Shown: positions 5,203 to 16,873 of the stretch, in pieces
Numbering within the stretch: position 1 is the first letter of the stretch
Layout of the letters: the number at the start of each line of letters is the position of its first letter
Notes under the pieces: model-generated
Told to the model about the DNA's origin: nothing
The model's input: only the letters and a program-made list of their open reading frames with translations
Databases searched by the model: none
DNA from: a virus
Lineage: Duplodnaviria > Heunggongvirae > Uroviricota > Caudoviricetes
Direction: 5' to 3' (one strand)
DNA: 16,873 nucleotides
IMG/VR virus record: IMGVR_UViG_3300030021_000029
Span: 1-16,873 of that record
Made by a program: the position numbers and the translations under genes

Positions 5203-6969
5203 ATGAACACCACACTGACACCCGCAGATCTCGATCCCCGTCGGCAGGCCATGCTGCTGTACTTTCAGGGATACCGCGTCGCCCGCATTGCTGAAATGCT
5301 GGGCGAGAAAGTTGCAACTGTTCACAGCTGGAAAAAACGCGACAAGTGGGGTGACTATGGGCCGCTGGATCAGATGCAGCTCACCACCGCCGCACGCTAC
5401 TGCCAGCTCATTATGAAGGAGCACAAAGAAGGGAAAGATTTCAAAGAGATTGACCTGCTGGCGCGCCAGTCGGAGCGCCACGCGCGGATCGGCAAGTTTA
5501 ACAATGGCGGCAACGAAGCCGATTTAAACCCTAACGTCGCCAACCGCAACAAAGGCCCACGCCGTCAGCCGGAAAAGAATGTTTTCACCGATGAACAGAT
5601 TGAGAAGCTGGAAGAAATCTTCCATTCCTCCATGTTCAACTACCAGCGCCACTGGTGGGAAGCCGGAAAAACCAACCGCATCCGCAACCTGCTGAAGTCA
5701 CGCCAGATCGGCGCAACCTTCTATTTTGCCCGTGAAGCCCTGATTGACGCCCTGCTGACCGGACGTAACCAGATTTTCCTTTCCGCCAGCAAGGCACAGG
5801 CCCACGTCTTTAAGCAGTACATCTTCGACTTCGCCAAAGAAGTGGAGGTGGAGCTGAAAGGTGATCCGATGGTGCTTCCTAACGGTGCCACGCTTTACTT
5901 CCTCGGCACCAATGCCCGCACTGCCCAGAGTTATCACGGCAACCTGTATCTGGATGAATATTTCTGGATACCGAAATTTCAGGAGCTGCGTAAAGTGGCT
6001 TCCGGTATGGCTATTCACAAAAAATGGCGACAAACCTATTTTTCCACGCCATCAAGCCTGACCCACAGTGCTTATCCGTTCTGGTCCGGTGCGCTGTTCA
6101 ACCGTGGACGCAACAAAGCCGACAAGGTGGACATCGACCTGTCCCACAGCAATCTGGCCCCCGGCCTGCTGTGCGCAGACGGGCAATACCGCCAGATAGT
6201 CACCGTGGAAGATGCGGTGCGCGGCGGCTGCAACCTGTTCGACCTTGACCAGTTGCGCATGGAGTACAGCCCGGACGAATACCAGAACCTGCTGATGTGC
6301 GAGTTTGTGGACGATCTCGCGTCCGTGTTTCCGCTCAGCGAGCTGCAGGCGTGCATGGTGGACAGTTGGGAAGTCTGGACCGACTTTCATGCACTGGCCC
6401 TTCGCCCGTTTGGGTGGCGCGAAGTGTGGATCGGTTATGACCCGGCAAAAGGTACGCAGAACGGCGACAGCGCCGGATGCGTGGTGGTGGCACCGCCAGC
6501 CGTGCCGGGCGGTAAGTTCCGTATTCTTGAGCGCCACCAGTGGCGCGGGATGGACTTCCGCGCCCAGGCGGACGCCATCAAAAAACTGACCGAACAGTAC
6601 AACGTGACATATATCGGCATCGACTCGACGGGTGTCGGTCACGGGGTTTACGAGAACGTGAAAGCGTTTTTTCCTGCCGTCCGGGAGTTTGTCTACAACC
6701 CCAACGTTAAAAATGCCCTGGTACTCAAGGCATACGACATTATCAGCCACCGCCGTCTGGAGTTTGACGCCGGGCACACCGACATTGCGCAGTCATTCAT
6801 GGCAATCCGTCGCGCCACCACCGCCAGTGGCAACCGCCCGACCTATGAAGCCAGCCGCAGCGAAGAAGCCAGCCACGCCGATCTGGCCTGGGCAACGATG
6901 CACGCACTGTTTAATGAACCGCTGCAGGGCGAGTCCGCCAATACAAGCAATATTGTGGAGATTTTTTGA
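5203..6969 (+). CDS. P: Terminase large (ATPase) subunit gpP-like
   Basis: 588 aa (P2 gpP about 590 aa); overlaps portal start by TGATG. Confidence 0.9.
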   Translation: MNTTLTPADLDPRRQAMLLYFQGYRVARIAEMLGEKVATVHSWKKRDKWGDYGPLDQMQLTTAARYCQLIMKEHKEGKDFKEIDLLARQSERHARIGKFNNGGNEADLNPNVANRNKGPRRQPEKNVFTDEQIEKLEEIFHSSMFNYQRHWWEAGKTNRIRNLLKSRQIGATFYFAREALIDALLTGRNQIFLSASKAQAHVFKQYIFDFAKEVEVELKGDPMVLPNGATLYFLGTNARTAQSYHGNLYLDEYFWIPKFQELRKVASGMAIHKKWRQTYFSTPSSLTHSAYPFWSGALFNRGRNKADKVDIDLSHSNLAPGLLCADGQYRQIVTVEDAVRGGCNLFDLDQLRMEYSPDEYQNLLMCEFVDDLASVFPLSELQACMVDSWEVWTDFHALALRPFGWREVWIGYDPAKGTQNGDSAGCVVVAPPAVPGGKFRILERHQWRGMDFRAQADAIKKLTEQYNVTYIGIDSTGVGHGVYENVKAFFPAVREFVYNPNVKNALVLKAYDIISHRRLEFDAGHTDIAQSFMAIRRATTASGNRPTYEASRSEEASHADLAWATMHALFNEPLQGESANTSNIVEIF

Positions 6970-8015
6970 TGGGAAAGAGTAAGAAAAACCGCGCTGCGGC
7001 GATGAATCACATCCAGCATAAAAGCCAGACTTCAGCCGAAGCATTCAGCTTCGGCGATCCCGTTCCTGTTCTGGACCGCCGAGAATTACTGGACTATGTG
7101 GAATGCGTACAGATGGACCGTTGGTATGAGCCGCCCGTCAGCTTTGACGGACTGGCGCGCACCTTCCGCGCCGCCGTGCATCACAGTTCCCCGATTGCAG
7201 TAAAGTGCAACATTCTGACCAGTACCTATATCCCTCATCCGCTGCTCAGCCAGCAGGCTTTTTCGCGTTTTGTGCAGGACTATCTGGTATTTGGTAACGC
7301 CTACCTGGAGAAACGCACGAACCGCTTCGGTGAAGTTATCGCCCTTGAACCGACCCTGGCAAAATACACCCGACGCGGATTAGACCTGGATACCTACTGG
7401 TTTGTGCAATACGGCATGACTACGCAGCCGTATCAGTTCACGAAAGGCAGCATTTTTCATCTGATGGAACCGGACATCAACCAGGAGATCTACGGCCTGC
7501 CCGGTTATCTTTCTGCCATTCCGTCAGCCCTGCTCAACGAGTCCGCCACGCTGTTCCGCCGCAAGTATTACATTAACGGCAGTCATGCAGGCTTCATCAT
7601 GTACATGACCGATGCAGCGCAGAACCAGGAGGATGTGAACAACCTCCGCAATGCGATGAAAAGCGCCAAAGGTCCTGGTAACTTCCGTAACCTGTTTATG
7701 TACTCGCCTAACGGTAAAAAGGACGGGCTTCAGATTATCCCGTTGTCAGAAGTGGCGGCGAAGGATGAGTTCCTGAATATCAAGAACGTGAGCCGGGACG
7801 ACATGATGGCGGCGCATCGTGTGCCGCCACAAATGATGGGGATAATGCCTAATAATGTCGGGGGGTTTGGGGATGTAGAAAAGGCAAGCCGTGTCTTTGT
7901 CCGCAACGAGTTGATACCTCTGCAGAAACGCCTACAGGAACTTAACAACTGGCTGGGCGATGAAGTTATACGTTTCGAGCCGTACACTTTAGATATTCAG
8001 AATGAAAAGAAATAA
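6969..8015 (+). CDS. Q: Portal protein gpQ-like
   Basis: 348 aa from ATG at 6969 (the track's 6966 start is TTG); directly downstream of terminase. Confidence 0.9.
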   Translation: MGKSKKNRAAAMNHIQHKSQTSAEAFSFGDPVPVLDRRELLDYVECVQMDRWYEPPVSFDGLARTFRAAVHHSSPIAVKCNILTSTYIPHPLLSQQAFSRFVQDYLVFGNAYLEKRTNRFGEVIALEPTLAKYTRRGLDLDTYWFVQYGMTTQPYQFTKGSIFHLMEPDINQEIYGLPGYLSAIPSALLNESATLFRRKYYINGSHAGFIMYMTDAAQNQEDVNNLRNAMKSAKGPGNFRNLFMYSPNGKKDGLQIIPLSEVAAKDEFLNIKNVSRDDMMAAHRVPPQMMGIMPNNVGGFGDVEKASRVFVRNELIPLQKRLQELNNWLGDEVIRFEPYTLDIQNEKK

Positions 8016-8043
8016 AAGTTAGCGAATAAAAATCATTAGCATA

Positions 8044-8062
8044 GGCCGCAAACTGAGCGGCC
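8044..8062. terminator. Bidirectional stem-loop terminator between convergent Q and the 89-aa gene
   Basis: GGCCGC-aaactga-GCGGCC hairpin, T-rich on the plus side (TTATTCATT) and U-rich on the minus side. Confidence 0.5.
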
Positions 8063-8069
8063 TTATTCA

Positions 8070-8339
8070 TTACCAATTTCTTTTTTCGGAGTTTAGCCAA
8101 TCACCGCATGGATAATATCTTGACGCCCATTCACCTTGTAAACGAGCTACAAACAGAATATCGTTACTATCGACCCTGGCTTGGAGTCCGTCACGCAGTT
8201 GAGTTGCGGTCAGCGTTGTATCTACTAACCAAAATGATTCAAGATATTTACAGTATGTAAATTGCTTTAGATAGTCAAAAACTTCATCGTAGTTTCTTCC
8301 CGGAGCCTTCAAGTCATAGGTTATACAATAAATAGCCAT
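8070..8339 (-). CDS. Hypothetical 89-aa protein, second gene of AT-rich two-gene cassette
   Basis: ATG at 8339, 3 nt after the upstream gene's TAG with GGAG inside that gene's 3' end (translational coupling); clearly AT-rich versus flanking phage genes; no family recognised. Confidence 0.55.
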   Translation of the reverse strand: MAIYCITYDLKAPGRNYDEVFDYLKQFTYCKYLESFWLVDTTLTATQLRDGLQARVDSNDILFVARLQGEWASRYYPCGDWLNSEKRNW

Positions 8340-8342
8340 TCT

Positions 8343-8525
8343 CTAAGCTCCGCATTTTTTATCATTTGGGGAACATCTTAACCTGCGACATTTGCGGCAA
8401 TACGATTGAGGGATCAGCCGCTCTCCTTCCATAGTTCTAAAACCAAACACTTCTTCAATTTTGTTCAAATCACCACTTGCAATAACCCCACAGCAGGGGC
8501 AGACAGCCTCAATTTGAAATGCCAT
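8343..8525 (-). CDS. Hypothetical small zinc-ribbon protein, first gene of AT-rich cassette
   Basis: Track ORF 8343..8588 starts at a TTG; ATG at 8525 has GGAG 8 nt upstream (alternative ATG at 8537). Cys pattern CPCC...(about 30 aa)...CRKC suggests a four-Cys zinc ribbon. Confidence 0.5.
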   Translation of the reverse strand: MAFQIEAVCPCCGVIASGDLNKIEEVFGFRTMEGERLIPQSYCRKCRRLRCSPNDKKCGA

Positions 8526-8624
8526 GTCTATCTCCATTCCACATGTTGAATGTAGGGTAATACTTCCTTTCAAGCAAAAATGAGACAAGGATCTTGAAAC
8601 CTAATTTAAACTTGCTTGCGCGCG

Positions 8625-8643
8625 CTCGTATCCCCGCCACGCC
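8625..8643. other. Candidate cos (cohesive end) site
   Basis: Reverse complement reads GGCGTGGCGGGGATACGAG; the first 13 nt equal the 186 cohesive-end sequence as I recall it (GGCGTGGCGGGGAAAGCAT). Located between replication gene A and portal Q, where cos lies in P2/186. Confidence 0.5.
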
Positions 8644-8685: not shown

Positions 8686-8712
8686 CGCAAAAGCCCGCCA
8701 GTTCTGGCGGGC
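8686..8712 (-). terminator. Rho-independent terminator for the LexA-regulated DinI-like operon
   Basis: GCCCGCCAG-tt-CTGGCGGGC perfect inverted repeat, followed on the minus strand by TTTTGCG. Confidence 0.45.
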
Positions 8713-8847
8713 CTTAGCAAAAACGATCCTCAAACGATCATGCGATCTCATGCGGCATAGACATGCACTACAGAGCTAACGCCTCGCAAGGGCTCGTTGT
8801 TCAACCTTGCTGACGCCAGAAGCAAGTTCAGACGCCAGCAACGTTTC

Positions 8848-9081
8848 TTAATGCAGCCAGCTGTCGTCTTCCCACACCTTCTGCATAATTTTCATCACTT
8901 GTTTTCTTTCTTCGTCCAGTTGCAGTCCGGTTAGTTCCACCCCGTTAGAGCTACCTTTGCGAATGCGAATTACCGTTTTGGGATACAGGGGGCGCAGATT
9001 GCGGTAAAGCTCGGATTCAAGGGCGTCCAGGGTAGACTGGCTAATCTTCTGCTCTTTATCGATCATTATTTCAATGCGCAT
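8848..9081 (-). CDS. DinI-family protein
   Basis: 77 aa from ATG at 9081 (GAGGTG SD); MRIEIMIDKEQ...ALESEL...KIMQKVWEDDSWLH resembles E. coli DinI in length and pattern. Confidence 0.8.
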   Translation of the reverse strand: MRIEIMIDKEQKISQSTLDALESELYRNLRPLYPKTVIRIRKGSSNGVELTGLQLDEERKQVMKIMQKVWEDDSWLH

Positions 9082-9091
9082 AAAAGTCACC

Positions 9092-9280
9092 TCAGCTGAT
9101 GACATCCATTGAGCGGTTGTATTCGTGGGTTCTGATTTTTGCCATGAGTTCATCAGTCAATTCAGAAACCCACTGCAGAGCCAGCCCCTTCTCTTCATCA
9201 CTACACTCACTAGCCGCTACAAGCTTAAGAAAAAAATCAATGCGCTGGAGCTTCAAAGACTCCAAAAAATAGTCCTGCAT
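9092..9280 (-). CDS. Small hypothetical protein, first gene of SOS operon (possible Tum-like antirepressor)
   Basis: 62 aa from ATG at 9280 with strong AGGAGG SD; LexA boxes just upstream; function inferred only from the 186 tum locus position. Confidence 0.55.
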   Translation of the reverse strand: MQDYFLESLKLQRIDFFLKLVAASECSDEEKGLALQWVSELTDELMAKIRTHEYNRSMDVIS

Positions 9281-9307
9281 CTTTCCTCCTATGACACCAC
9301 ACGCAAT

Positions 9308-9433: not shown

Positions 9434-11848
9434 TTAATACAGGTTCCGCCACTGATCATCTTCCTGCAAACGCTGGTTCCGATAGAAGATACGCAGGCCT
9501 GCTCCTGACGGAATACTGCCGCCGCGAAGGAGTAAATCGACCTCTTTCTCGCTGCCATCAAATCCTCTGGACTTCAGCTCATACACGAGCTGCAGTCGCT
9601 GATGGTCTGTAATTCGCTGTTTGTAGTCTTTACGCCGTTTCGGTTTCACCAGGCGTAACCTTGCTGCCAGTTCCCGGCGCTCTTTATTGCTCATACTGTG
9701 CAGGTAATCGTGCAACTCCTTGTCATCCATGCTGGTAATGTCCGTTCTGGGGTCCCCATCAGCTGATTTATCTTTCTCCTGTTGGTTCAAATTTTCAGCA
9801 AGGGGACAGTTATTGCCACGAGTCCAAGGGGCGCAAGCGCCCTGGTCGGCTGCCGCCTCCTGAACGTCAACGGCTTTACGAACCATTTTCCACTTCACTG
9901 CATGAGTGCAGATCTTGCCCTCTGCAATGGGTGACCAGATGCCATAAATACGAATGCCGTGATCGCCATAGGCGGTCGGCTCTTCGTTGATTTCATAAGC
10001 GGTTCTGATGAGGTGATATTTACGGGGAACCAGTACGCCGCCCTGCTTCATGATGTAGGTGGCAAAACAACCAGCATCAGCAGCAGCCAGAATGGCATCA
10101 AGACGCGGGTTATCCAGTACCGGCGCACCTGCTTTTTTGTCACCCTGTTGCCTTGCCGCCTGACCAGCCAGCAAGCGAAGTTCACGGTAAGCCTGACGCC
10201 CCGGAATACCAAAGAAGCGGAATTGCTGAACACGATGCAGAGACGCCCAGGCATTCACGTATTCAGCGTTATCACGCAGAGATTTACCCGTTTCCTTGCT
10301 GATCTCGCCAGCCAGACCACGCCCGTCAATGTTCTTACTGATATATTTCGCGATGTAGCTTGTCGGCGTTCCTTTGCGCGGGTTAATCAACTCAGACTTA
10401 AAGCGCGGCCCAGTGTTATTGCCCAGCTCCTCGCGGTCTTCACGGATGGCAAACTTACGCAGTAATGCAGTGATGGCACGGCGGTCTTTTTTGCGCATGA
10501 AACACAACAGGTGCCAGTGAACTGTGCCATCATGATGCGGCTCAGCCACCCGCACGCCATACCAGCGCAACCCAGCTTTGTGCATCGCCTTACGAAATGC
10601 AGCAAACATGCCGACCAGATAATCGCTGCTTTGTCTTACCGTCGCGTTTGTCCAGGTCGGGTTTGGTCTGCCGTTATTTAGCGTGGAATGGAAACGCGAC
10701 GGACAGGTGATAGTGTAGAAAACGGCGCAGTCACCGCGCATTTCCGCGATAAGCTCCAGACCTTTAACACAGGCCATCATCTCATTGCGGCGATGCGCAG
10801 GGTTGCTGCTGCTGGCGTTTACCACATCCTCCATGTCCAGCGTGTCGCCGTCTTCGTTCACCAGTTCATGAGAACGGAAAAACTCCAGCGACTTACGGCG
10901 CTGCTCACGTTTATGCATCACGGCTTCATAGCTGACATAAGGAGATGCTTTTTTGCTGACCAGGCAAACAGCGCGCAACTGCTCTTCCCGCCATTCGCAA
11001 CGCATCTTCCATAATTTCCGATACCACCAGTCGGCGCACAACATACGCGCCAGCGAACCCGGAATGAGTTCATAGGGCACGGGTTTACGGCGGTTTCTTT
11101 TCCGACGGAGTTGCTCAAACGCAGGTGGGATGACATCCAGACGCAGGGTTTCCGCTGCCACCTTTTCCCATGTCTTGCGGATTTCTTCTGGCTTAACGTC
11201 ATCGGTGGCATACAAATCACCACAAGCTGCATCAAGGCACATACTCATATGCGCAGCTACCAGGGTGGACAGGCGTTTCACCTGATCCTGACTCATTTCA
11301 GGCAGGATCAGCAGGCCGTCCAGCCCTTCATGGCTTGCCATAAAGCGAAAAGATGCAGATAGCTGACTGTCGCGTACATGCTCCAGTCGTTCCAGACATG
11401 GCTTAATCGTCTCACGTAAATAGCGGGAATAAGCCTTTGGCCTGCCCAGGCTGCTGAAGTATTCAATACGTTGCATCAGCGGCTTGCTGATATGGGAAGG
11501 CTGGGCGTTGACGTCCGCCAGAATGACCATGTCTGAATTAAAACGCTGCTGCTCATGCGCCAGCTTTGCCCGGCTAATGAGCTTATCCTGCTCCATTTCG
11601 CGCTGGACAGGATCACGTGATTCATTAAAGAAATAACGCTCCCAGACCTGATCACTCAGTGCCTCGCGGCGCAACTGTTCCTGTTCGTTATCGGCAGCGT
11701 ACAGAGTGATCAGGTTTGAAAGCGTAGAAACCGGCGCAACTTCCGCCGGGTCCAGATAAGGGTTAATGGCCTTTTTCGGGCTGTTCCATGAGAACGCTGC
11801 GGCAGCCTCGTTAAAGCCGCAGCAGTTGTTCATATCGGCATGACTCAT
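9434..11848 (-). CDS. A: Replication initiation protein gpA (rolling-circle HUH endonuclease)
   Basis: 804 aa; HUH-like motif (VHWHLL) and tyrosine pair ([12 protein letters not shown]) typical of phiX174/P2 A-type initiators. Confidence 0.9.
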
Positions 11849-14878: not shown

Positions 14879-15448
14879 ATGAATTTGGAGAAAGGCGGAC
14901 GAGGCGCTATAGAGCGCATGGTAGAAGCTTATGGATTCAAGACTCGACAGGCGTTGTGCGATCATTTAGGAATCTCTAAAAGTACACTCGCCACACGCTA
15001 CATGCGTGACTCATTCCCAGCAGAATGGGTAATCCAGTGCGCCCTTGAAACAGGCACCTCGCTTAATTGGCTCACAACCGGGCATGGTTCAAAGCAAACT
15101 TCAGGTAATACAAATACTATGGAAGTTGCTAAATATGTATTATCTGATGGTGCCTTGCGTGAAGACGGTTTTTATATTTTTGATAAGGGATTTCTACCCT
15201 CTACGTTTAAAAAACCTTTTGTCATCACAGATAACAATTCTGAATTTATTTGTGATAAAGAATTTGATGATATACGTGATGGTAAATGGGTAATAAGTAT
15301 TGATGGCGAAATAACAATCCGCGACATTACTCGTTTACCCGGTGGAAGAATCTTCGTTGAAGGTGGAAACAGAGCCTTCGAGTGCAAGATAGAAGATGTT
15401 GAAATAATTGGAAAAATTATAAGTTTAACAATTAAGTACGTTAGGTAA
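14879..15448 (+). CDS. cI: CI-like immunity repressor (186 type, HTH N-terminal domain)
   Basis: 189 aa from ATG at 14879 (GGAG SD; the track's 14873 start is GTG); HTH (TRQALCDHLGISKSTLATRYM); size fits 186 CI (about 192 aa), not P2 C (99 aa). Confidence 0.75.
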   Translation: MNLEKGGRGAIERMVEAYGFKTRQALCDHLGISKSTLATRYMRDSFPAEWVIQCALETGTSLNWLTTGHGSKQTSGNTNTMEVAKYVLSDGALREDGFYIFDKGFLPSTFKKPFVITDNNSEFICDKEFDDIRDGKWVISIDGEITIRDITRLPGGRIFVEGGNRAFECKIEDVEIIGKIISLTIKYVR

Positions 15449-15463
15449 TACCGGGAGGAAACT

Positions 15464-15655
15464 ATGCTTGGTAAGGTATTTTTTGTGGTTTTATCATGCT
15501 CTTTGTTATTAAACCCACTAACTACCTATGCTAAAAATTATCCTTGTTCTGGGAAAAAAGGAGGTGTCTCTCACTGTACCTCCGATGGAAAGTTCGTTTG
15601 CAATGATGGAACTATTAGTAAATCAAAAAAAATCTGTACTAAAAACTCGCGATAA
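15464..15655 (+). CDS. Small secreted Cys-rich protein (moron)
   Basis: 63 aa; strong GGGAGGA SD; N-terminal signal peptide ([19 protein letters not shown]), mature about 40 aa with 4 Cys and many Lys; AT-rich. Confidence 0.55.
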
Positions 15656-15788
15656 ATTTTGCTTTTATATCTGCGCCTAATATAACAATGAGCCGCAGGC
15701 TAACCGCAAAAGTCACATGCTCACATAGCAAAAAATAGCCAACTTCATTATGGCTTCAGTGAGATGTATGGTCACAGGATTTCATACA

Positions 15789-15817
15789 TTGACACTGGTT
15801 ATACATACAGTAAAAAT
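15789..15817 (+). promoter_or_regulatory. Candidate LexA-repressed promoter upstream of int
   Basis: Perfect -35 TTGACA (15789..15794), 16-17 nt spacer holding a full CTG-N10-CAG LexA box (15795..15810), weak -10 (TAAAAA/AAAAAT), then GGAGG and int ATG at 15842. Confidence 0.4.
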
Positions 15818-15841
15818 GCTCTCCACTGGAGGGCATTTTTT

Positions 15842-16873
15842 ATGGCAGTACGAAAACTCACCACAGGAAAATGGCTTTGCGAATGTTACCCCGCCGGACG
15901 TAGTGGGCGTCGTGTGCGTAAACAATTCGCCACCAAAGGTGAAGCTCTGGCTTTTGAGCGTCACACGATGGAAGAAACCGAAGCAAAGCCCTGGCTGGGT
16001 GAATCAGTGGATCGTCGAACACTGAAAGACGTGGTTGAGCTATGGTTCAAACTACATGGTAAATCTCTGACAGCTGGGCAGCATGTCTATGACAAATTGC
16101 TGTTGATAGTTGACGCTCTGGGCAATCCCCTTGCAACCGATCTCACCTCTAAAATGTTTGCCCACTATCGAGATAAACGCCTAACAGGAGAGATCTACTT
16201 CAGCGAGAAATGGAAGAAAGGAGCAAGCCCGGTCACCATTAACCTGGAGCAAAGCTATCTAAGTAGTGTTTTTAGCGAACTATCCCGCCTGGGCGAATGG
16301 TCGTATCCAAACCCACTGGAGAACATGCGAAAATTCACCATCGCAGAAAAAGAGATGGCATGGCTTACCCATGAGCAGATTGTTGAACTGCTGGCTGATT
16401 GCAAACGTCAGGACCCAATTCTGGCTCTGGTAGTCAAAATATGCTTAAGCACAGGCGCACGCTGGCGAGAAGCCGTAAATCTTACCCGCTCACAGGTGAC
16501 CAAATACCGAATTACCTTTGTAAGAACGAAGGGGAAGAAAAACAGAAGCATCCCTATCAGTAAAGAGCTTTACGAAGAGATCATGGCGCTTGATGGGTTC
16601 AATTTCTTTACAGACTGCTATTTTCAATTTTTATCCGTGATGGAAAAAACGTCTATCGTGCTCCCTCGCGGTCAACTGACACACGTTCTGCGCCATACGT
16701 TTGCGGCGCACTTCATGATGTCGGGTGGAAATATCCTGGCCTTACAAAAAATTCTCGGGCATCACGATATAAAAATGACTATGCGTTACGCACATCTGGC
16801 ACCGGATCACCTGGAAACTGCATTACGGTTTAATCCGCTGGCAACACTACCAACATCAATAGCAAGTTTTTGA
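15842..16873 (+). CDS. int: Tyrosine integrase (P2/186 family)
   Basis: 343 aa from ATG at 15842 (MAVRKLTTGKWLCECYPAGRSGRRVRKQF); C-terminal LRHTFAAH...HHDIKMTMRYAHL recombinase motifs; stop is the last codon in the window. Confidence 0.85.
   Translation: MAVRKLTTGKWLCECYPAGRSGRRVRKQFATKGEALAFERHTMEETEAKPWLGESVDRRTLKDVVELWFKLHGKSLTAGQHVYDKLLLIVDALGNPLATDLTSKMFAHYRDKRLTGEIYFSEKWKKGASPVTINLEQSYLSSVFSELSRLGEWSYPNPLENMRKFTIAEKEMAWLTHEQIVELLADCKRQDPILALVVKICLSTGARWREAVNLTRSQVTKYRITFVRTKGKKNRSIPISKELYEEIMALDGFNFFTDCYFQFLSVMEKTSIVLPRGQLTHVLRHTFAAHFMMSGGNILALQKILGHHDIKMTMRYAHLAPDHLETALRFNPLATLPTSIASF

What the first reader, a model, noticed from the sequence alone, without database searches (positions are those of the whole stretch)
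8070..8588. AT-rich two-gene cassette (zinc-ribbon protein + 89-aa protein) wedged between cos and the portal gene
Seen: two translationally coupled small ORFs on the minus strand, convergent with Q and separated from it by a bidirectional hairpin. Their composition is clearly AT-rich against GC-rich phage genes. Gene 1 has a CPCC...CRKC four-Cys pattern. Gene 2 (MAIYCITYDL...SFWLVDT...DILFVARL) alternates hydrophobic strands and helices like a small ferredoxin-like fold; I could not assign it a family. Established, from memory: in P2 the portal gene sits almost directly next to cos, and the A-to-Q interval is where P2-like phages carry variable cargo such as old and tin. Inference: this is acquired cargo at that hotspot, a candidate toxin-antitoxin, anti-defence or defence module with no named family I can recognise.
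Basis: partly seen in the sequence, partly recalled or inferred. Interest (0 to 1): 0.8.

Follow-up and report, generated by a model that had tools for sequence, protein, structure and literature searches.

The report
Stand-alone Cas2-like gene pair beside cos
A rare two-gene insert next to the packaging site of a P2/186-like E. coli prophage encodes a small zinc-binding protein and a free-standing relative of the CRISPR protein Cas2; the Cas2 relative belongs to a very large, untested family carried by temperate phages and is a good candidate for a prophage-expressed nucleic-acid weapon.

Summary
Two real minus-strand genes lie between cos (8625-8643) and the portal gene Q, ending at a shared hairpin (8043-8063). 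Both genes are under purifying selection (dN/dS 0.04-0.2).

Only 17 of 5,426 complete E. coli genomes carry the insert, although 1,277 carry the cos segment. It is therefore accessory cargo in the known gpA-gpQ hotspot.

Gene 2 does have a family. It is a stand-alone Cas2-superfamily protein with a βαββαβ model, Cas2 as top structural hits, and the Asp at the end of β1 conserved. Its family has more than 4,000 clusters at 50% identity, without Cas1 or CRISPR nearby. In temperate phages it points against lytic transcription. In some Bacteroidota it heads Menshen-like and CBASS operons.

Each gene also occurs without the other, so an obligate toxin-antitoxin pair is unlikely.

My best reading, at about 0.4 confidence, is a lysogen-expressed nuclease-type exclusion or defence cargo with a clade-specific zinc-ribbon partner. 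No function has been tested.

The parts
8043..8063 (.). GC-rich hairpin (AGGCCGC-N7-GCGGCCT) shared by the convergent Q gene and the cassette; likely bidirectional terminator
   Evidence: Terminator scan. The stem is conserved in orthologous loci. It sits where tQ sits in P2.
8070..8339 (-). Gene 2: 89-aa stand-alone Cas2-superfamily protein (phrog_1090)
   Evidence: ORF. phrog_1090 E 4e-30. PADLOC Cas2b/Cas2 E 5e-4 and 3e-3. AF2 pLDDT 90, βαββαβ. Foldseek top hits are all Cas2. 65 of 123 family members hit Pfam CRISPR_Cas2. dN/dS 0.12-0.43, mostly 0.12-0.21.
8343..8525 (-). Gene 1: 60-aa basic zinc-ribbon protein (phrog_19700), Cys at 9, 11, 12, 43, 46, 51, 58; not annotated in RefSeq E. coli records
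   Evidence: phrog_19700 E 6e-42 over residues 22-81 of the long ORF. 45 homologous clusters of 58-60 aa. Conserved Cys. dN/dS 0.04-0.08. No CDS at this place in L001, L003 or L096. AF2 pLDDT 80.
8526..8601 (-). 76-nt conserved leader that travels with gene 1: GGAG RBS at 8535-8532, a TTGAAA -35-like hexamer, and conserved TGTCTCATTTT and TTACCCTAC blocks. Presumed own promoter, not demonstrated.
   Evidence: The same blocks sit upstream of the gene in loci where it is not next to cos on this side (L076) and in diverged orthologues. The simple sigma-70 scan found no consensus promoter here.
8625..8643 (-). cos cohesive-end homologue GGCGTGGCGGGGATACGAG; boundary of the cassette, not part of it
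   Evidence: 14 of 19 bases identical to the annotated P2 cosL GGCGAGGCGGGGAAAGCAC, followed by the same GCGCGC. This block is conserved in 1,277 E. coli genomes.
8687..8718 (-). Hairpin GCCCGCCAG/CTGGCGGGC followed by TTTTGC on the minus strand. Likely terminator of the upstream DinI-like unit, so the cassette needs its own promoter.
   Evidence: Inverted repeat I2; sequence; conserved in orthologues. The terminator function is inferred.

Best explanation
Shown:
- The region is a self-contained accessory operon: leader, 60-aa zinc-ribbon gene, 89-aa gene, terminator.
- It is inserted on the portal side of cos in a 186/P2-like prophage, inside the gpA-gpQ cargo hotspot.
- The 89-aa product is a stand-alone member of the Cas2 superfamily. 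It belongs to a very large family with no Cas1 or CRISPR nearby that rides on temperate phages and genomic islands.

Inferred:
- The protein keeps the Cas2 motifs: Tyr-Asp-Leu at the end of β1, a Ser-x-Trp in place of the Cas2 S-V-F segment at the β2/β3 turn, and an Asp-x-x-Asp before β4. It therefore probably forms a Cas2-like homodimer that binds or cuts RNA or DNA.
- The cassette is convergent with the late operon. Its homologues in other temperate phages lie antisense to the lytic operons. It is therefore probably expressed from the prophage, like old, tin and fun in P2.
- It most likely acts on foreign nucleic acid, as superinfection exclusion or anti-phage defence.
- The zinc-ribbon protein has a basic C-terminal half and a fold with faint resemblance to a histidine-less ββα-Me/HNH finger. 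It is an enterobacterial add-on, most likely a nucleic-acid-binding specificity or regulatory partner, and is not required by the Cas2-like family in general.
For: Identity:
- Cas2 assignment. Prior profile-based annotation in PMC7371120.
- Family size: 4,196 clusters at E<=1e-3 and 1,269 at <=1e-10.
- No Cas1 or CRISPR family among 148 neighbours of 46 genome loci.

Accessory status: 17 of 5,426 genomes against 1,277 with the cos segment. The location is the hotspot of PMC9122126. [quoted passage not shown]

Lysogen-type orientation:
- The cassette is convergent with P-Q.
- Homologues are lone genes antisense to the early lytic operon, in the cI/int direction, in phiFL1A, SN8, Pmp11, D4044, phi4B1 and CP51.
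- 26 of 27 IMG/VR loci have a convergent downstream neighbour.

Defence association:
- Homologues sit directly upstream of NsnB+NsnC (Menshen) with no NsnA in the locus (L057, L060).
- One sits directly upstream of Cap4 + CD-NTase/E2, a CBASS operon (L049).
- One lies next to Thoeris (L004).
- The zinc-ribbon gene alone lies in an island with Mrr-nSTAND and a KAP NTPase.

Linkage in Enterobacteria:
- All 10 viral loci with the Cas2-like gene at >=71% identity also carry the zinc-ribbon gene.
- Both genes are under purifying selection and show parallel divergence.
Against: - No experiment exists for any member.
- No hit to any PADLOC defence model other than Cas2.
- No consensus promoter was found, so expression in the lysogen is inferred from orientation only.
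- An 89-aa protein alone would be unusually small for a complete sense-and-kill system.
- The defence-operon associations are three loci from one phylum.
- In chromosomal loci the orientation relative to neighbours is mixed.
- Anti-defence genes also accumulate in phage accessory regions.
Confidence: 0.4

Rival explanations
1. Toxin-antitoxin or addiction module. In one version the Cas2-like protein is a VapD-like RNase toxin and the zinc-ribbon protein, encoded upstream, is its antitoxin. In the reverse version, as in GhoS/GhoT, the Cas2-like protein is the antitoxin.
For: - Small upstream gene plus small downstream nuclease-fold gene in a tight operon.
- VapD and GhoS appear among the structural matches (ranks 37 and 16).
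- Makarova et al. 2012 proposed an addiction role for stand-alone Cas2 homologues on mobile elements (PMC3506569).
Against: - The Cas2-like gene is intact and conserved without any zinc-ribbon gene in about 50 of 58 genome loci and 21 of 31 viral loci. This includes relatives at 64-65% identity.
- The zinc-ribbon gene is intact without the Cas2-like gene in L073, L074, L076, L078, L083 and L084-L091.
- L073 is a clean deletion of the Cas2-like gene that leaves the zinc-ribbon gene at 97% identity.
- The zinc-ribbon protein has no membrane segment, unlike GhoT.
- Cas2 proteins, not VapD, are the top structural hits.
Confidence: 0.12
2. Counter-defence. One or both proteins inhibit a host immune system. 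For example, a decoy Cas2 could poison Cas1-Cas2 spacer acquisition, or a nuclease could destroy an immune signal or guide RNA.
For: - Small, fast-moving, phage-borne genes with no partner requirement are typical of anti-defence proteins.
- Bleriot 2020 speculated on immune evasion for the Klebsiella orthologue.
- The family is widespread in temperate phages.
Against: - Orientation is against lytic transcription in every annotated phage examined. That fits prophage expression, not early-infection expression.
- Some members lie in operons with defence genes in bacterial chromosomes.
- The family is an old, separate branch of the superfamily rather than a recent copy of host cas2 (no Pfam hit for this protein). 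From my own knowledge, E. coli I-E Cas2 belongs to a different Pfam family. A dominant-negative decoy is therefore unlikely.
Confidence: 0.15
3. Two merely adjacent small genes with a housekeeping or regulatory role for the prophage. An example would be an RNA-processing or DNA-binding regulator of lysogeny or induction. Alternatively they are near-neutral selfish cargo with no effect on other phages.
For: - Each gene is independently mobile.
- In Gram-positive phages the Cas2-like gene sits in the immunity-switch region near cro, the antirepressor and cI.
- The zinc-ribbon domain is fused to a winged-helix domain in a Stx-phage protein downstream of the Q antiterminator.
- It lies beside DNA methyltransferase genes in three loci.
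Against: - A core regulator would not be present in only about 1% of P2-like prophages.
- Strong purifying selection on both genes, and conserved linkage of the pair across dS about 1.5 in enterobacterial phages, argue for a selected function of the pair.
Confidence: 0.2
4. Packaging accessory. An HNH-like finger plus a nuclease next to cos, the terminase and the portal would help cos cleavage, as HNH proteins do in HK97-like phages.
For: - Position immediately beside cos and the portal and terminase genes.
- The only structural resemblance of the zinc-ribbon model is to the ββα-Me region of Hpy99I.
Against: - Absent from about 99% of P2-like prophages, including P2 itself.
- Transcribed against the late operon.
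- AT-rich foreign composition.
- The zinc-ribbon protein contains no histidine at all, so it lacks the catalytic His of HNH (sequence).
- Both families occur far from any packaging genes.
Confidence: 0.03

Closest known systems
Cas2 of CRISPR-Cas adaptation modules (Pfam PF09827; e.g. PDB 5g4d, 2i0x, 1zpw, 4es1)
   Same: Length of about 90 aa and the βαββαβ ferredoxin fold. Y-D-[IL] at the end of β1, a Ser at the β2/β3 turn, and an acidic pair before β4. These are the top structural hits (TM 0.6-0.65). There are profile matches for this protein (PADLOC) and for 65 of 123 family members (Pfam).
   Different: No cas1, CRISPR array or other cas gene in the window or in the sampled loci. The protein falls below the Pfam threshold itself. 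It has an extra conserved C-terminal W-A-S...W-L segment. It is carried by phages and islands.
Stand-alone Cas2 homologues on mobile elements (Makarova, Anantharaman, Aravind, Koonin 2012, PMC3506569)
   Same: Cas2 homologues without an antitoxin or CRISPR, in mobile-element contexts, with unknown function.
   Different: That paper cites examples next to resolvases and relaxases in Campylobacter and Helicobacter. The family here is phage-borne, has a conserved anti-lytic orientation, and in Enterobacteria has a zinc-ribbon partner. I did not test whether the two sets are the same family.
VapD (VapXD toxin-antitoxin) and GhoS (GhoST type V antitoxin)
   Same: Cas2-like fold and small size. Both appear among the structural matches.
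   Different: They rank lower than Cas2. The partner here is unrelated to VapX or GhoT. The pair is separable in both directions.
BPSL1038 Cas2/VapD-like nuclease subfamily (PDB 7vxr; PMC10491678)
   Same: A stand-alone Cas2-fold protein with a conserved Asp pair and shown nuclease activity. It is a precedent that Cas2 relatives outside CRISPR can be nucleases.
   Different: 7% identity and Foldseek E 0.06. The motif differs: D11-X20-SST against D9...S35-x-W37.
P2 lysogenic-conversion cargo at the gpA-gpQ/cos hotspot (old, tin; Rousset 2022, PMC9122126)
   Same: Same interval, variable presence, low GC. The 89-aa protein is listed in that paper's Table S5A.
   Different: It lies on the Q side of cos. 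In this window the A side holds only the DinI-like gene and a small phrog_698 gene. In strain PigCaeca_2 a separate three-gene cargo occupies the A side while the same cassette sits on the Q side. It was not among the systems tested. There is no similarity to old, tin or any PADLOC system.
ββα-Me / HNH zinc fingers (e.g. Hpy99I, PDB 3fc3), compared with gene 1
   Different: The match is not significant. The protein has no histidine or other catalytic residues. It has three extra conserved Cys. Treat this as a lead only.

Membership tests
Cas2 superfamily (fold and sequence family) | About 90-residue βαββαβ ferredoxin-like fold superposable on solved Cas2 structures | tested here: met
   AF2 model with pLDDT 90 and strands/helices E2-9, H18-25, E28-33, E36-41, H45-53, E61-67. 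Foldseek ranks 1-15 are all Cas2 proteins, TM 0.54-0.65.
Cas2 superfamily (fold and sequence family) | Significant match of the protein itself to a curated Cas2 profile | tested here: inconclusive
   No Pfam or NCBIfam hit. PADLOC Cas2b E 5e-4 and Cas2 E 3e-3. The family profile against PDB gives Cas2 as the top two hits, but at E 0.13-0.21. By transitivity, 65 of 123 family representatives hit PF09827, best 1.7e-9.
Cas2 superfamily (fold and sequence family) | Conserved metal-binding Asp at the C-terminal end of β1 | tested here: met
   Y8-D9-L10 are at least 90% conserved over 123 diverse members. D9 ends strand E2-9 of the model. It aligns with the YD[VI] of B. halodurans and type I-C Cas2.
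Cas2 superfamily (fold and sequence family) | Homodimer and nuclease or nucleic-acid-binding activity | not testable with these tools
   Needs biochemistry or a multimer prediction.
CRISPR-Cas adaptation module | cas2 adjacent to cas1 and/or a CRISPR array | tested here: not met
   No such genes in the window. No Cas1 or other Cas family among 148 neighbours of 46 loci. No Rfam hit in the window.
Type II toxin-antitoxin pair (VapXD-like) | The two genes are mutually dependent and co-inherited; the toxin is never found without its antitoxin | tested here: not met
   The Cas2-like gene is alone in about 50 of 58 genome loci and 21 of 31 viral loci. The zinc-ribbon gene is alone in 5 of 15 viral loci and in L084-L091. 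L073 is a precise loss of the Cas2-like gene only.
Type II toxin-antitoxin pair (VapXD-like) | Toxicity of one product, neutralised by the other | not testable with these tools
   Requires expression experiments.
Type V GhoST-like pair | Partner is a small membrane-lytic peptide whose mRNA the Cas2-fold protein cleaves | tested here: not met
   The partner is a soluble, Cys-rich, basic 60-aa protein with no hydrophobic segment (sequence; model).
P2-like gpA-gpQ hotspot cargo (Rousset 2022) | Lies between gpA and gpQ next to cos and varies between otherwise related prophages | tested here: met
   Coordinates. 17 of 5,426 genomes against 1,277 with the cos segment. Listed in Table S5A of PMC9122126.
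P2-like gpA-gpQ hotspot cargo (Rousset 2022) | Confers resistance to other phages | not testable with these tools
   Not among the systems cloned in PMC9122126, as far as its text and tables show.
Known or candidate defence systems in PADLOC-DB v2 | Match to a system-specific protein model | tested here: not met
   Only the weak Cas2 hits for gene 2. Nothing for gene 1.
Menshen (NsnABC) | NsnB ABC-ATPase and NsnC effector encoded next to the gene | tested here: not met
   Absent from the window. Present only next to distant homologues in L057 and L060.
HNH / ββα-Me nucleases (gene 1) | ββα-metal fold with a catalytic His | tested here: not met

The most novel reading that the evidence does not exclude
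The phrog_1090 family would be a previously unrecognised, very widespread class of free-living Cas2 relatives that work as prophage-encoded immunity or exclusion nucleases, or as nucleic-acid sensors. They would act alone, with a zinc-ribbon adaptor (as here), or plugged into larger systems. The Flavobacteriia operons, where the gene occupies the place of the NsnA sensor of Menshen, would be an example of the last case. That would give Cas2 a functional life outside CRISPR and bear on what Cas2 did before CRISPR adaptation recruited it.
Probability: 0.25. Interest if true: 0.8.

Novelty: new variant of a known kind. Interest (0 to 1): 0.55.

Why it matters
Cas2 is universal in CRISPR systems, yet its own catalytic activity is dispensable there. 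Its evolutionary origin is usually traced to toxin-like nucleases of mobile elements.

The family found here is large (more than 4,000 clusters at 50% identity), independent of CRISPR, and borne by temperate phages. It keeps the catalytic-type residues and has a consistent lysogen-type orientation. It offers a direct handle on what such proteins do on their own.

The E. coli P2-like copy is easy to test, because it sits in a hotspot where cargo has repeatedly proved to be anti-phage.

On a practical level, gene 1 is a conserved, selected gene that RefSeq annotation of E. coli misses.

Tried and rejected
- Pfam and NCBIfam on both proteins gave nothing usable.
- PDB sequence search with the close-family profile gave only noise. 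The broad profile put Cas2 on top, but not significantly.
- The zinc-ribbon protein had no significant Pfam, PDB-sequence or Foldseek match. Weak DUF2321 and DUF5679 hits in 4 of 30 members were not pursued.
- The afdb50 fold library was unavailable.
- Rfam on the whole window gave no RNA family, so there is no sign of a known RNA antitoxin.
- The repeat search around the cassette found no flanking direct repeats that would mark a transposon-like insertion.
- The sigma-70 scan found no consensus promoter in the leader. My manual candidates (TTGAAA or TTGCTT with TACATT) are not consistently conserved, so no promoter is claimed.
- The search for a conserved neighbour of the Cas2-like gene across 58 genome loci found no recurrent partner. 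Neighbours were only generic mobile-element genes.
- Literature searches for the accessions, the PHROG numbers and 'stand-alone/solo/phage-encoded Cas2' found no experimental work on this family.
- The 'SinR' label on one Klebsiella phage record and on phiFL1A gp05 was considered and rejected as an annotation artefact. The protein has no helix-turn-helix, and its fold is Cas2-like.
- The 'hemagglutinin' name that NCBI and UniRef give some zinc-ribbon orthologues has no support in any search here.
- A packaging role was rejected on distribution and on the absence of any histidine.
Full report
**What is in the sequence**

The window is part of a P2/186-like prophage.
- On the plus strand lie the large terminase gene P (5203-6969) and the portal gene Q (6966-8015).
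- On the minus strand lie the replication gene A (9434-11848), a small phrog_698 gene, and a DinI-like gene (8848-9081).
- Between Q and the DinI-like gene lies the cos site. The 19-mer GGCGTGGCGGGGATACGAG (8643-8625, minus strand) matches the annotated P2 cosL in 14 of 19 positions and is followed by the same GCGCGC.

**Checking the observation**

All descriptive points hold, with one correction.
- **Gene 2** is 8070-8339 (89 aa).
- **Gene 1** was given as 8343-8588 (81 aa from a TTG). Its real start is almost certainly ATG 8525 (60 aa), for four reasons:
  - a GGAG lies 6 nt upstream;
  - codon-patterned conservation across orthologues begins there;
  - phrog_19700 is 60 positions long and matches residues 22-81;
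  - homologues are 58-60 aa.
- **Operon structure.** Three bases separate the stop of gene 1 from the start of gene 2, and a GGAG lies inside the end of gene 1.
- **Terminator.** A 7-bp GC-rich hairpin (8043-8063) separates the cassette from the convergent Q gene.
- **Composition.** GC is 40.5%, against 54.8% for P+Q.
- **Selection.** Against orthologues diverged to dS of about 0.2-1.5, dN/dS is 0.04-0.08 for gene 1 and mostly 0.12-0.21 for gene 2. Both are real genes.
- **Annotation gap.** RefSeq does not annotate gene 1 in any E. coli record I opened.
- **Own promoter.** A hairpin followed by a T-run at 8718-8687 (minus strand) probably ends the DinI-like unit, so the cassette should need its own promoter. 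A conserved 76-nt leader (8526-8601) travels with gene 1 even where the gene sits elsewhere. I could not identify a convincing sigma-70 promoter in it.

**Accessory status**

- A 721-bp query spanning the cassette and cos matches 1,277 of 5,426 complete E. coli genomes through the cos segment. Only 17 of them contain the cassette: eight at about 99% identity and nine at about 81%.
- Four Klebsiella phage records carry it at about 85% identity. Kluyvera and Citrobacter genomes carry it at 90% protein identity.
- The interval between gpA and gpQ is the hotspot described by Rousset et al. 2022. The 89-aa protein appears in their Table S5A as 'hypothetical' and was not among the tested systems.
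- In strain PigCaeca_2 the same cassette sits on the Q side of cos while a different three-gene cargo occupies the A side.

**Gene 2 is a stand-alone Cas2 relative**

- Pfam and NCBIfam found nothing. PADLOC gave weak Cas2b and Cas2 hits (5e-4, 3e-3). PHROGs placed it in phrog_1090, function unknown.
- An AlphaFold2 model (pLDDT 90) has the βαββαβ topology. Its 15 best Foldseek matches in the PDB are all Cas2 proteins (TM 0.54-0.65). GhoS, BPSL1038 and VapD rank lower.
- An exhaustive profile search found 4,196 clusters at 50% identity (1,269 at E<=1e-10). Nearly all are about 90 aa.
- Of 123 diverse members, 65 hit Pfam CRISPR_Cas2, best 1.7e-9.
- The positions conserved in at least 90% of the family are Y8, D9, L10, Y17, S35, W37, D57, D60, V64 and W81. 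They include the Asp at the end of β1 that is the metal ligand in Cas2 and VapD, and they align with the YD[VI] and S-V-F segments of solved Cas2 proteins.
- Bleriot et al. 2020 had already labelled the 89%-identical Klebsiella orthologue 'Cas2', reporting a profile match at E = 5e-14. RefSeq calls staphylococcal phage members Cas2.
- The family is therefore not nameless. No member has been studied experimentally in the literature I could search.

**It is not a CRISPR component**

- No cas1, other cas gene or array lies in the window.
- Among 148 neighbouring proteins from 46 genome loci spread over Bacteria, no Cas family was found (58 genome loci were retrieved in all, including one haloarchaeal locus). 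The neighbours are integrases, CI/LexA-type repressors, Bro-N/ORF6C antirepressors, DNA methylases, IS1595 transposases, RusA, a KAP NTPase and similar proteins.

**The two genes are separable**

- The zinc-ribbon gene accompanies the Cas2-like gene only in enterobacterial P2-like elements. Those are the window, L001-L003, L011, L012 and the ten viral loci at >=71% identity.
- About 50 of 58 genome loci and 21 of 31 viral loci have the Cas2-like gene alone. This includes relatives at 64-65% identity in a marine bacterium and in Alloalcanivorax.
- Conversely, the zinc-ribbon family (45 clusters, gammaproteobacterial) occurs without a Cas2-like gene in several settings:
  - in P2-like contigs L073, L074 and L078, at the same slot;
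  - in L076 and L083;
  - in Moritella-type and other islands.
- L073 is a deletion derivative. It keeps the first roughly 10 nt and last roughly 20 nt of the Cas2-like gene and an intact zinc-ribbon gene.
- A toxin cannot persist without its antitoxin, so an obligate TA pair in either polarity is unlikely.
- Within Enterobacteria the pair has nevertheless stayed together over large synonymous divergence, with both members under selection. A functional link in this clade is plausible.

**Clues to function from context**

1. **Orientation in phages.**
   - I opened six annotated temperate phages from six genera: Enterococcus phiFL1A, Staphylococcus SN8, Pasteurella Pmp11, Lactococcus D4044, Bacillus phi4B1 and Clostridium CP51.
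   - In each, the homologue is a lone gene embedded antisense in the early lytic operon. It points the same way as cI, immA and int.
   - In 26 of 27 IMG/VR loci (not de-replicated) the downstream neighbour is convergent.
   - Here the cassette is convergent with the late operon.
   - This is the layout of genes expressed from the prophage, such as lysogenic-conversion and exclusion genes. It is not the layout of early anti-defence genes.
2. **Defence neighbourhoods.**
   - In Flavobacterium (L057) and Psychroserpens (L060) the homologue lies immediately upstream of NsnB and NsnC of the Menshen system (PADLOC E 1e-91 to 2e-64). It overlaps the NsnB start by 4 nt in L057 and lies 8 nt from it in L060.
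   - Neither locus holds a ParB-DUF262 NsnA (the Menshen description is from PMC12065111).
   - In Pedobacter (L049) it lies 1 nt upstream of a Cap4 HNH-SAVED effector and a CD-NTase/E2 gene, a CBASS operon.
   - A close relative lies beside Thoeris genes.
   - These are few loci, but they point the same way.

**The zinc-ribbon protein**

- It has seven conserved Cys: a CPCC...CRKC ribbon plus C11, C51 and C58 (the second Cys of the CPCC motif and two C-terminal Cys). Its C-terminal half is strongly basic, and it has no histidine.
- The AF2 model is moderate (pLDDT 80).
- The same domain forms the C-terminus of a 197-aa Stx-phage protein whose N-terminus is a winged helix.
- The stand-alone gene lies next to DNA methyltransferase genes in three loci.

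**Most likely mechanism**

Shown:
- A self-contained accessory operon in the P2 cargo hotspot.
- Gene 2 is a CRISPR-independent Cas2-superfamily protein with catalytic-type residues conserved.
- Gene 1 is a conserved zinc-ribbon protein.
- The two are linked in Enterobacteria but are dispensable for each other.

Inferred:
- Expression from the prophage.
- A Cas2-like dimer that binds or cleaves RNA or DNA.
- Action against incoming phages or other mobile elements, with the zinc-ribbon protein as a specificity or regulatory partner.

I put about 0.4 on this. The rivals are:
- a regulatory or neutral moron pair, 0.2;
- counter-defence, 0.15;
- a TA or addiction module, 0.12;
- a packaging accessory, 0.03.

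**Novelty and interest**

- The fold family, the hotspot and the existence of stand-alone Cas2 homologues on mobile elements are all known (PMC3506569).
- Three things are not described:
  - the size and phage-borne, anti-lytic-oriented nature of this particular family;
  - its zinc-ribbon partner in P2-like phages;
  - its occurrence at the head of Menshen-like and CBASS operons.
- I rate it a new variant of a known kind, with interest 0.55. It is a cheap, well-posed experiment with a reasonable chance of showing what a Cas2 does on its own. As it stands, it is still an untested pair of small proteins in a hotspot that holds hundreds of such arrangements.

Noticed in passing
L057:4001-6332 (Flavobacterium aquatile) and L060:1319-3679 (Psychroserpens sp.): A homologue of the 89-aa Cas2-like protein sits directly upstream of NsnB and NsnC of the Menshen defence system (4-nt overlap in L057, 8-nt gap in L060). 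No ParB-DUF262 NsnA is in the locus; in L057 the next upstream long gene is carbamoyl-phosphate synthase. The Cas2-like gene thus occupies the slot of the NsnA sensor.
   Followed up: partly
L049:4001-7096 (Pedobacter sp. ok626): A Cas2-like homologue lies 1 nt upstream of a CBASS operon: a Cap4-type HNH-SAVED effector (PADLOC E 2.5e-134) followed by a CD-NTase fused to E2 (E 3.7e-145).
   Followed up: partly
window 8343-8525 (minus strand); also L001, L003, L096: The 60-aa zinc-ribbon gene is conserved and under strong purifying selection (dN/dS 0.04-0.08). It has no CDS in the RefSeq annotation of the E. coli genomes examined. Some NCBI and UniRef entries for orthologues carry the unsupported name 'hemagglutinin'.
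   Followed up: yes
L095:2096-2689 (Shigella phage 75/02 Stx, gp32): A 197-aa protein encoded between the Q antiterminator and stxA combines an N-terminal winged helix (DnaD_N/HTH_36) with a C-terminal domain homologous to the zinc-ribbon protein (48% identity over 42 residues; phrog_34160).
   Followed up: partly
L073:2938-3270 and L074 (IMG/VR P2-like contigs): These are natural deletion derivatives. The zinc-ribbon gene is intact (97% identity), but the Cas2-like gene is reduced to its first roughly 10 nt and last roughly 20 nt, directly before the terminator hairpin.
   Followed up: yes
L096:9781-11349 (E. coli PigCaeca_2 prophage): The same cassette on the Q side of cos coexists with an unrelated three-gene cargo (138, 87 and 297 aa, all hypothetical) on the A side. 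The two sides of cos therefore behave as separate insertion slots.
   Followed up: no
window 8848-9081 and about 9093-9281 (minus strand): A DinI-like gene (Pfam DinI E 1e-22; the position of tum in 186-type phages) and a 62-aa phrog_698 gene of unknown function lie between cos and gene A. The long ORFs listed from upstream ATGs probably over-extend both.
   Followed up: no
P0160 (1,507-aa metagenomic protein), residues 367-433: A Baseplate_J-family protein, probably from a contractile injection system or a phage, carries an inserted domain of the stand-alone Cas2-like family. P0033 and P0164 are tandem duplications of the domain.
   Followed up: no
L093:3276-3437 (phiFL1A gp04) and L094:3268-3429 (SN8 gp34): In these two Firmicutes phages a small gene of about 53 aa lies convergent with the 3' end of the Cas2-like gene: it overlaps that end in phiFL1A and abuts it in SN8. 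It could be a lineage-specific partner or an antisense regulator.
   Followed up: no
window 15000-15900: This is the most AT-rich stretch of the window (GC 0.34-0.39). By comparison with the related prophage in L096 it lies near the CI repressor and integrase end. I did not examine it.
   Followed up: no
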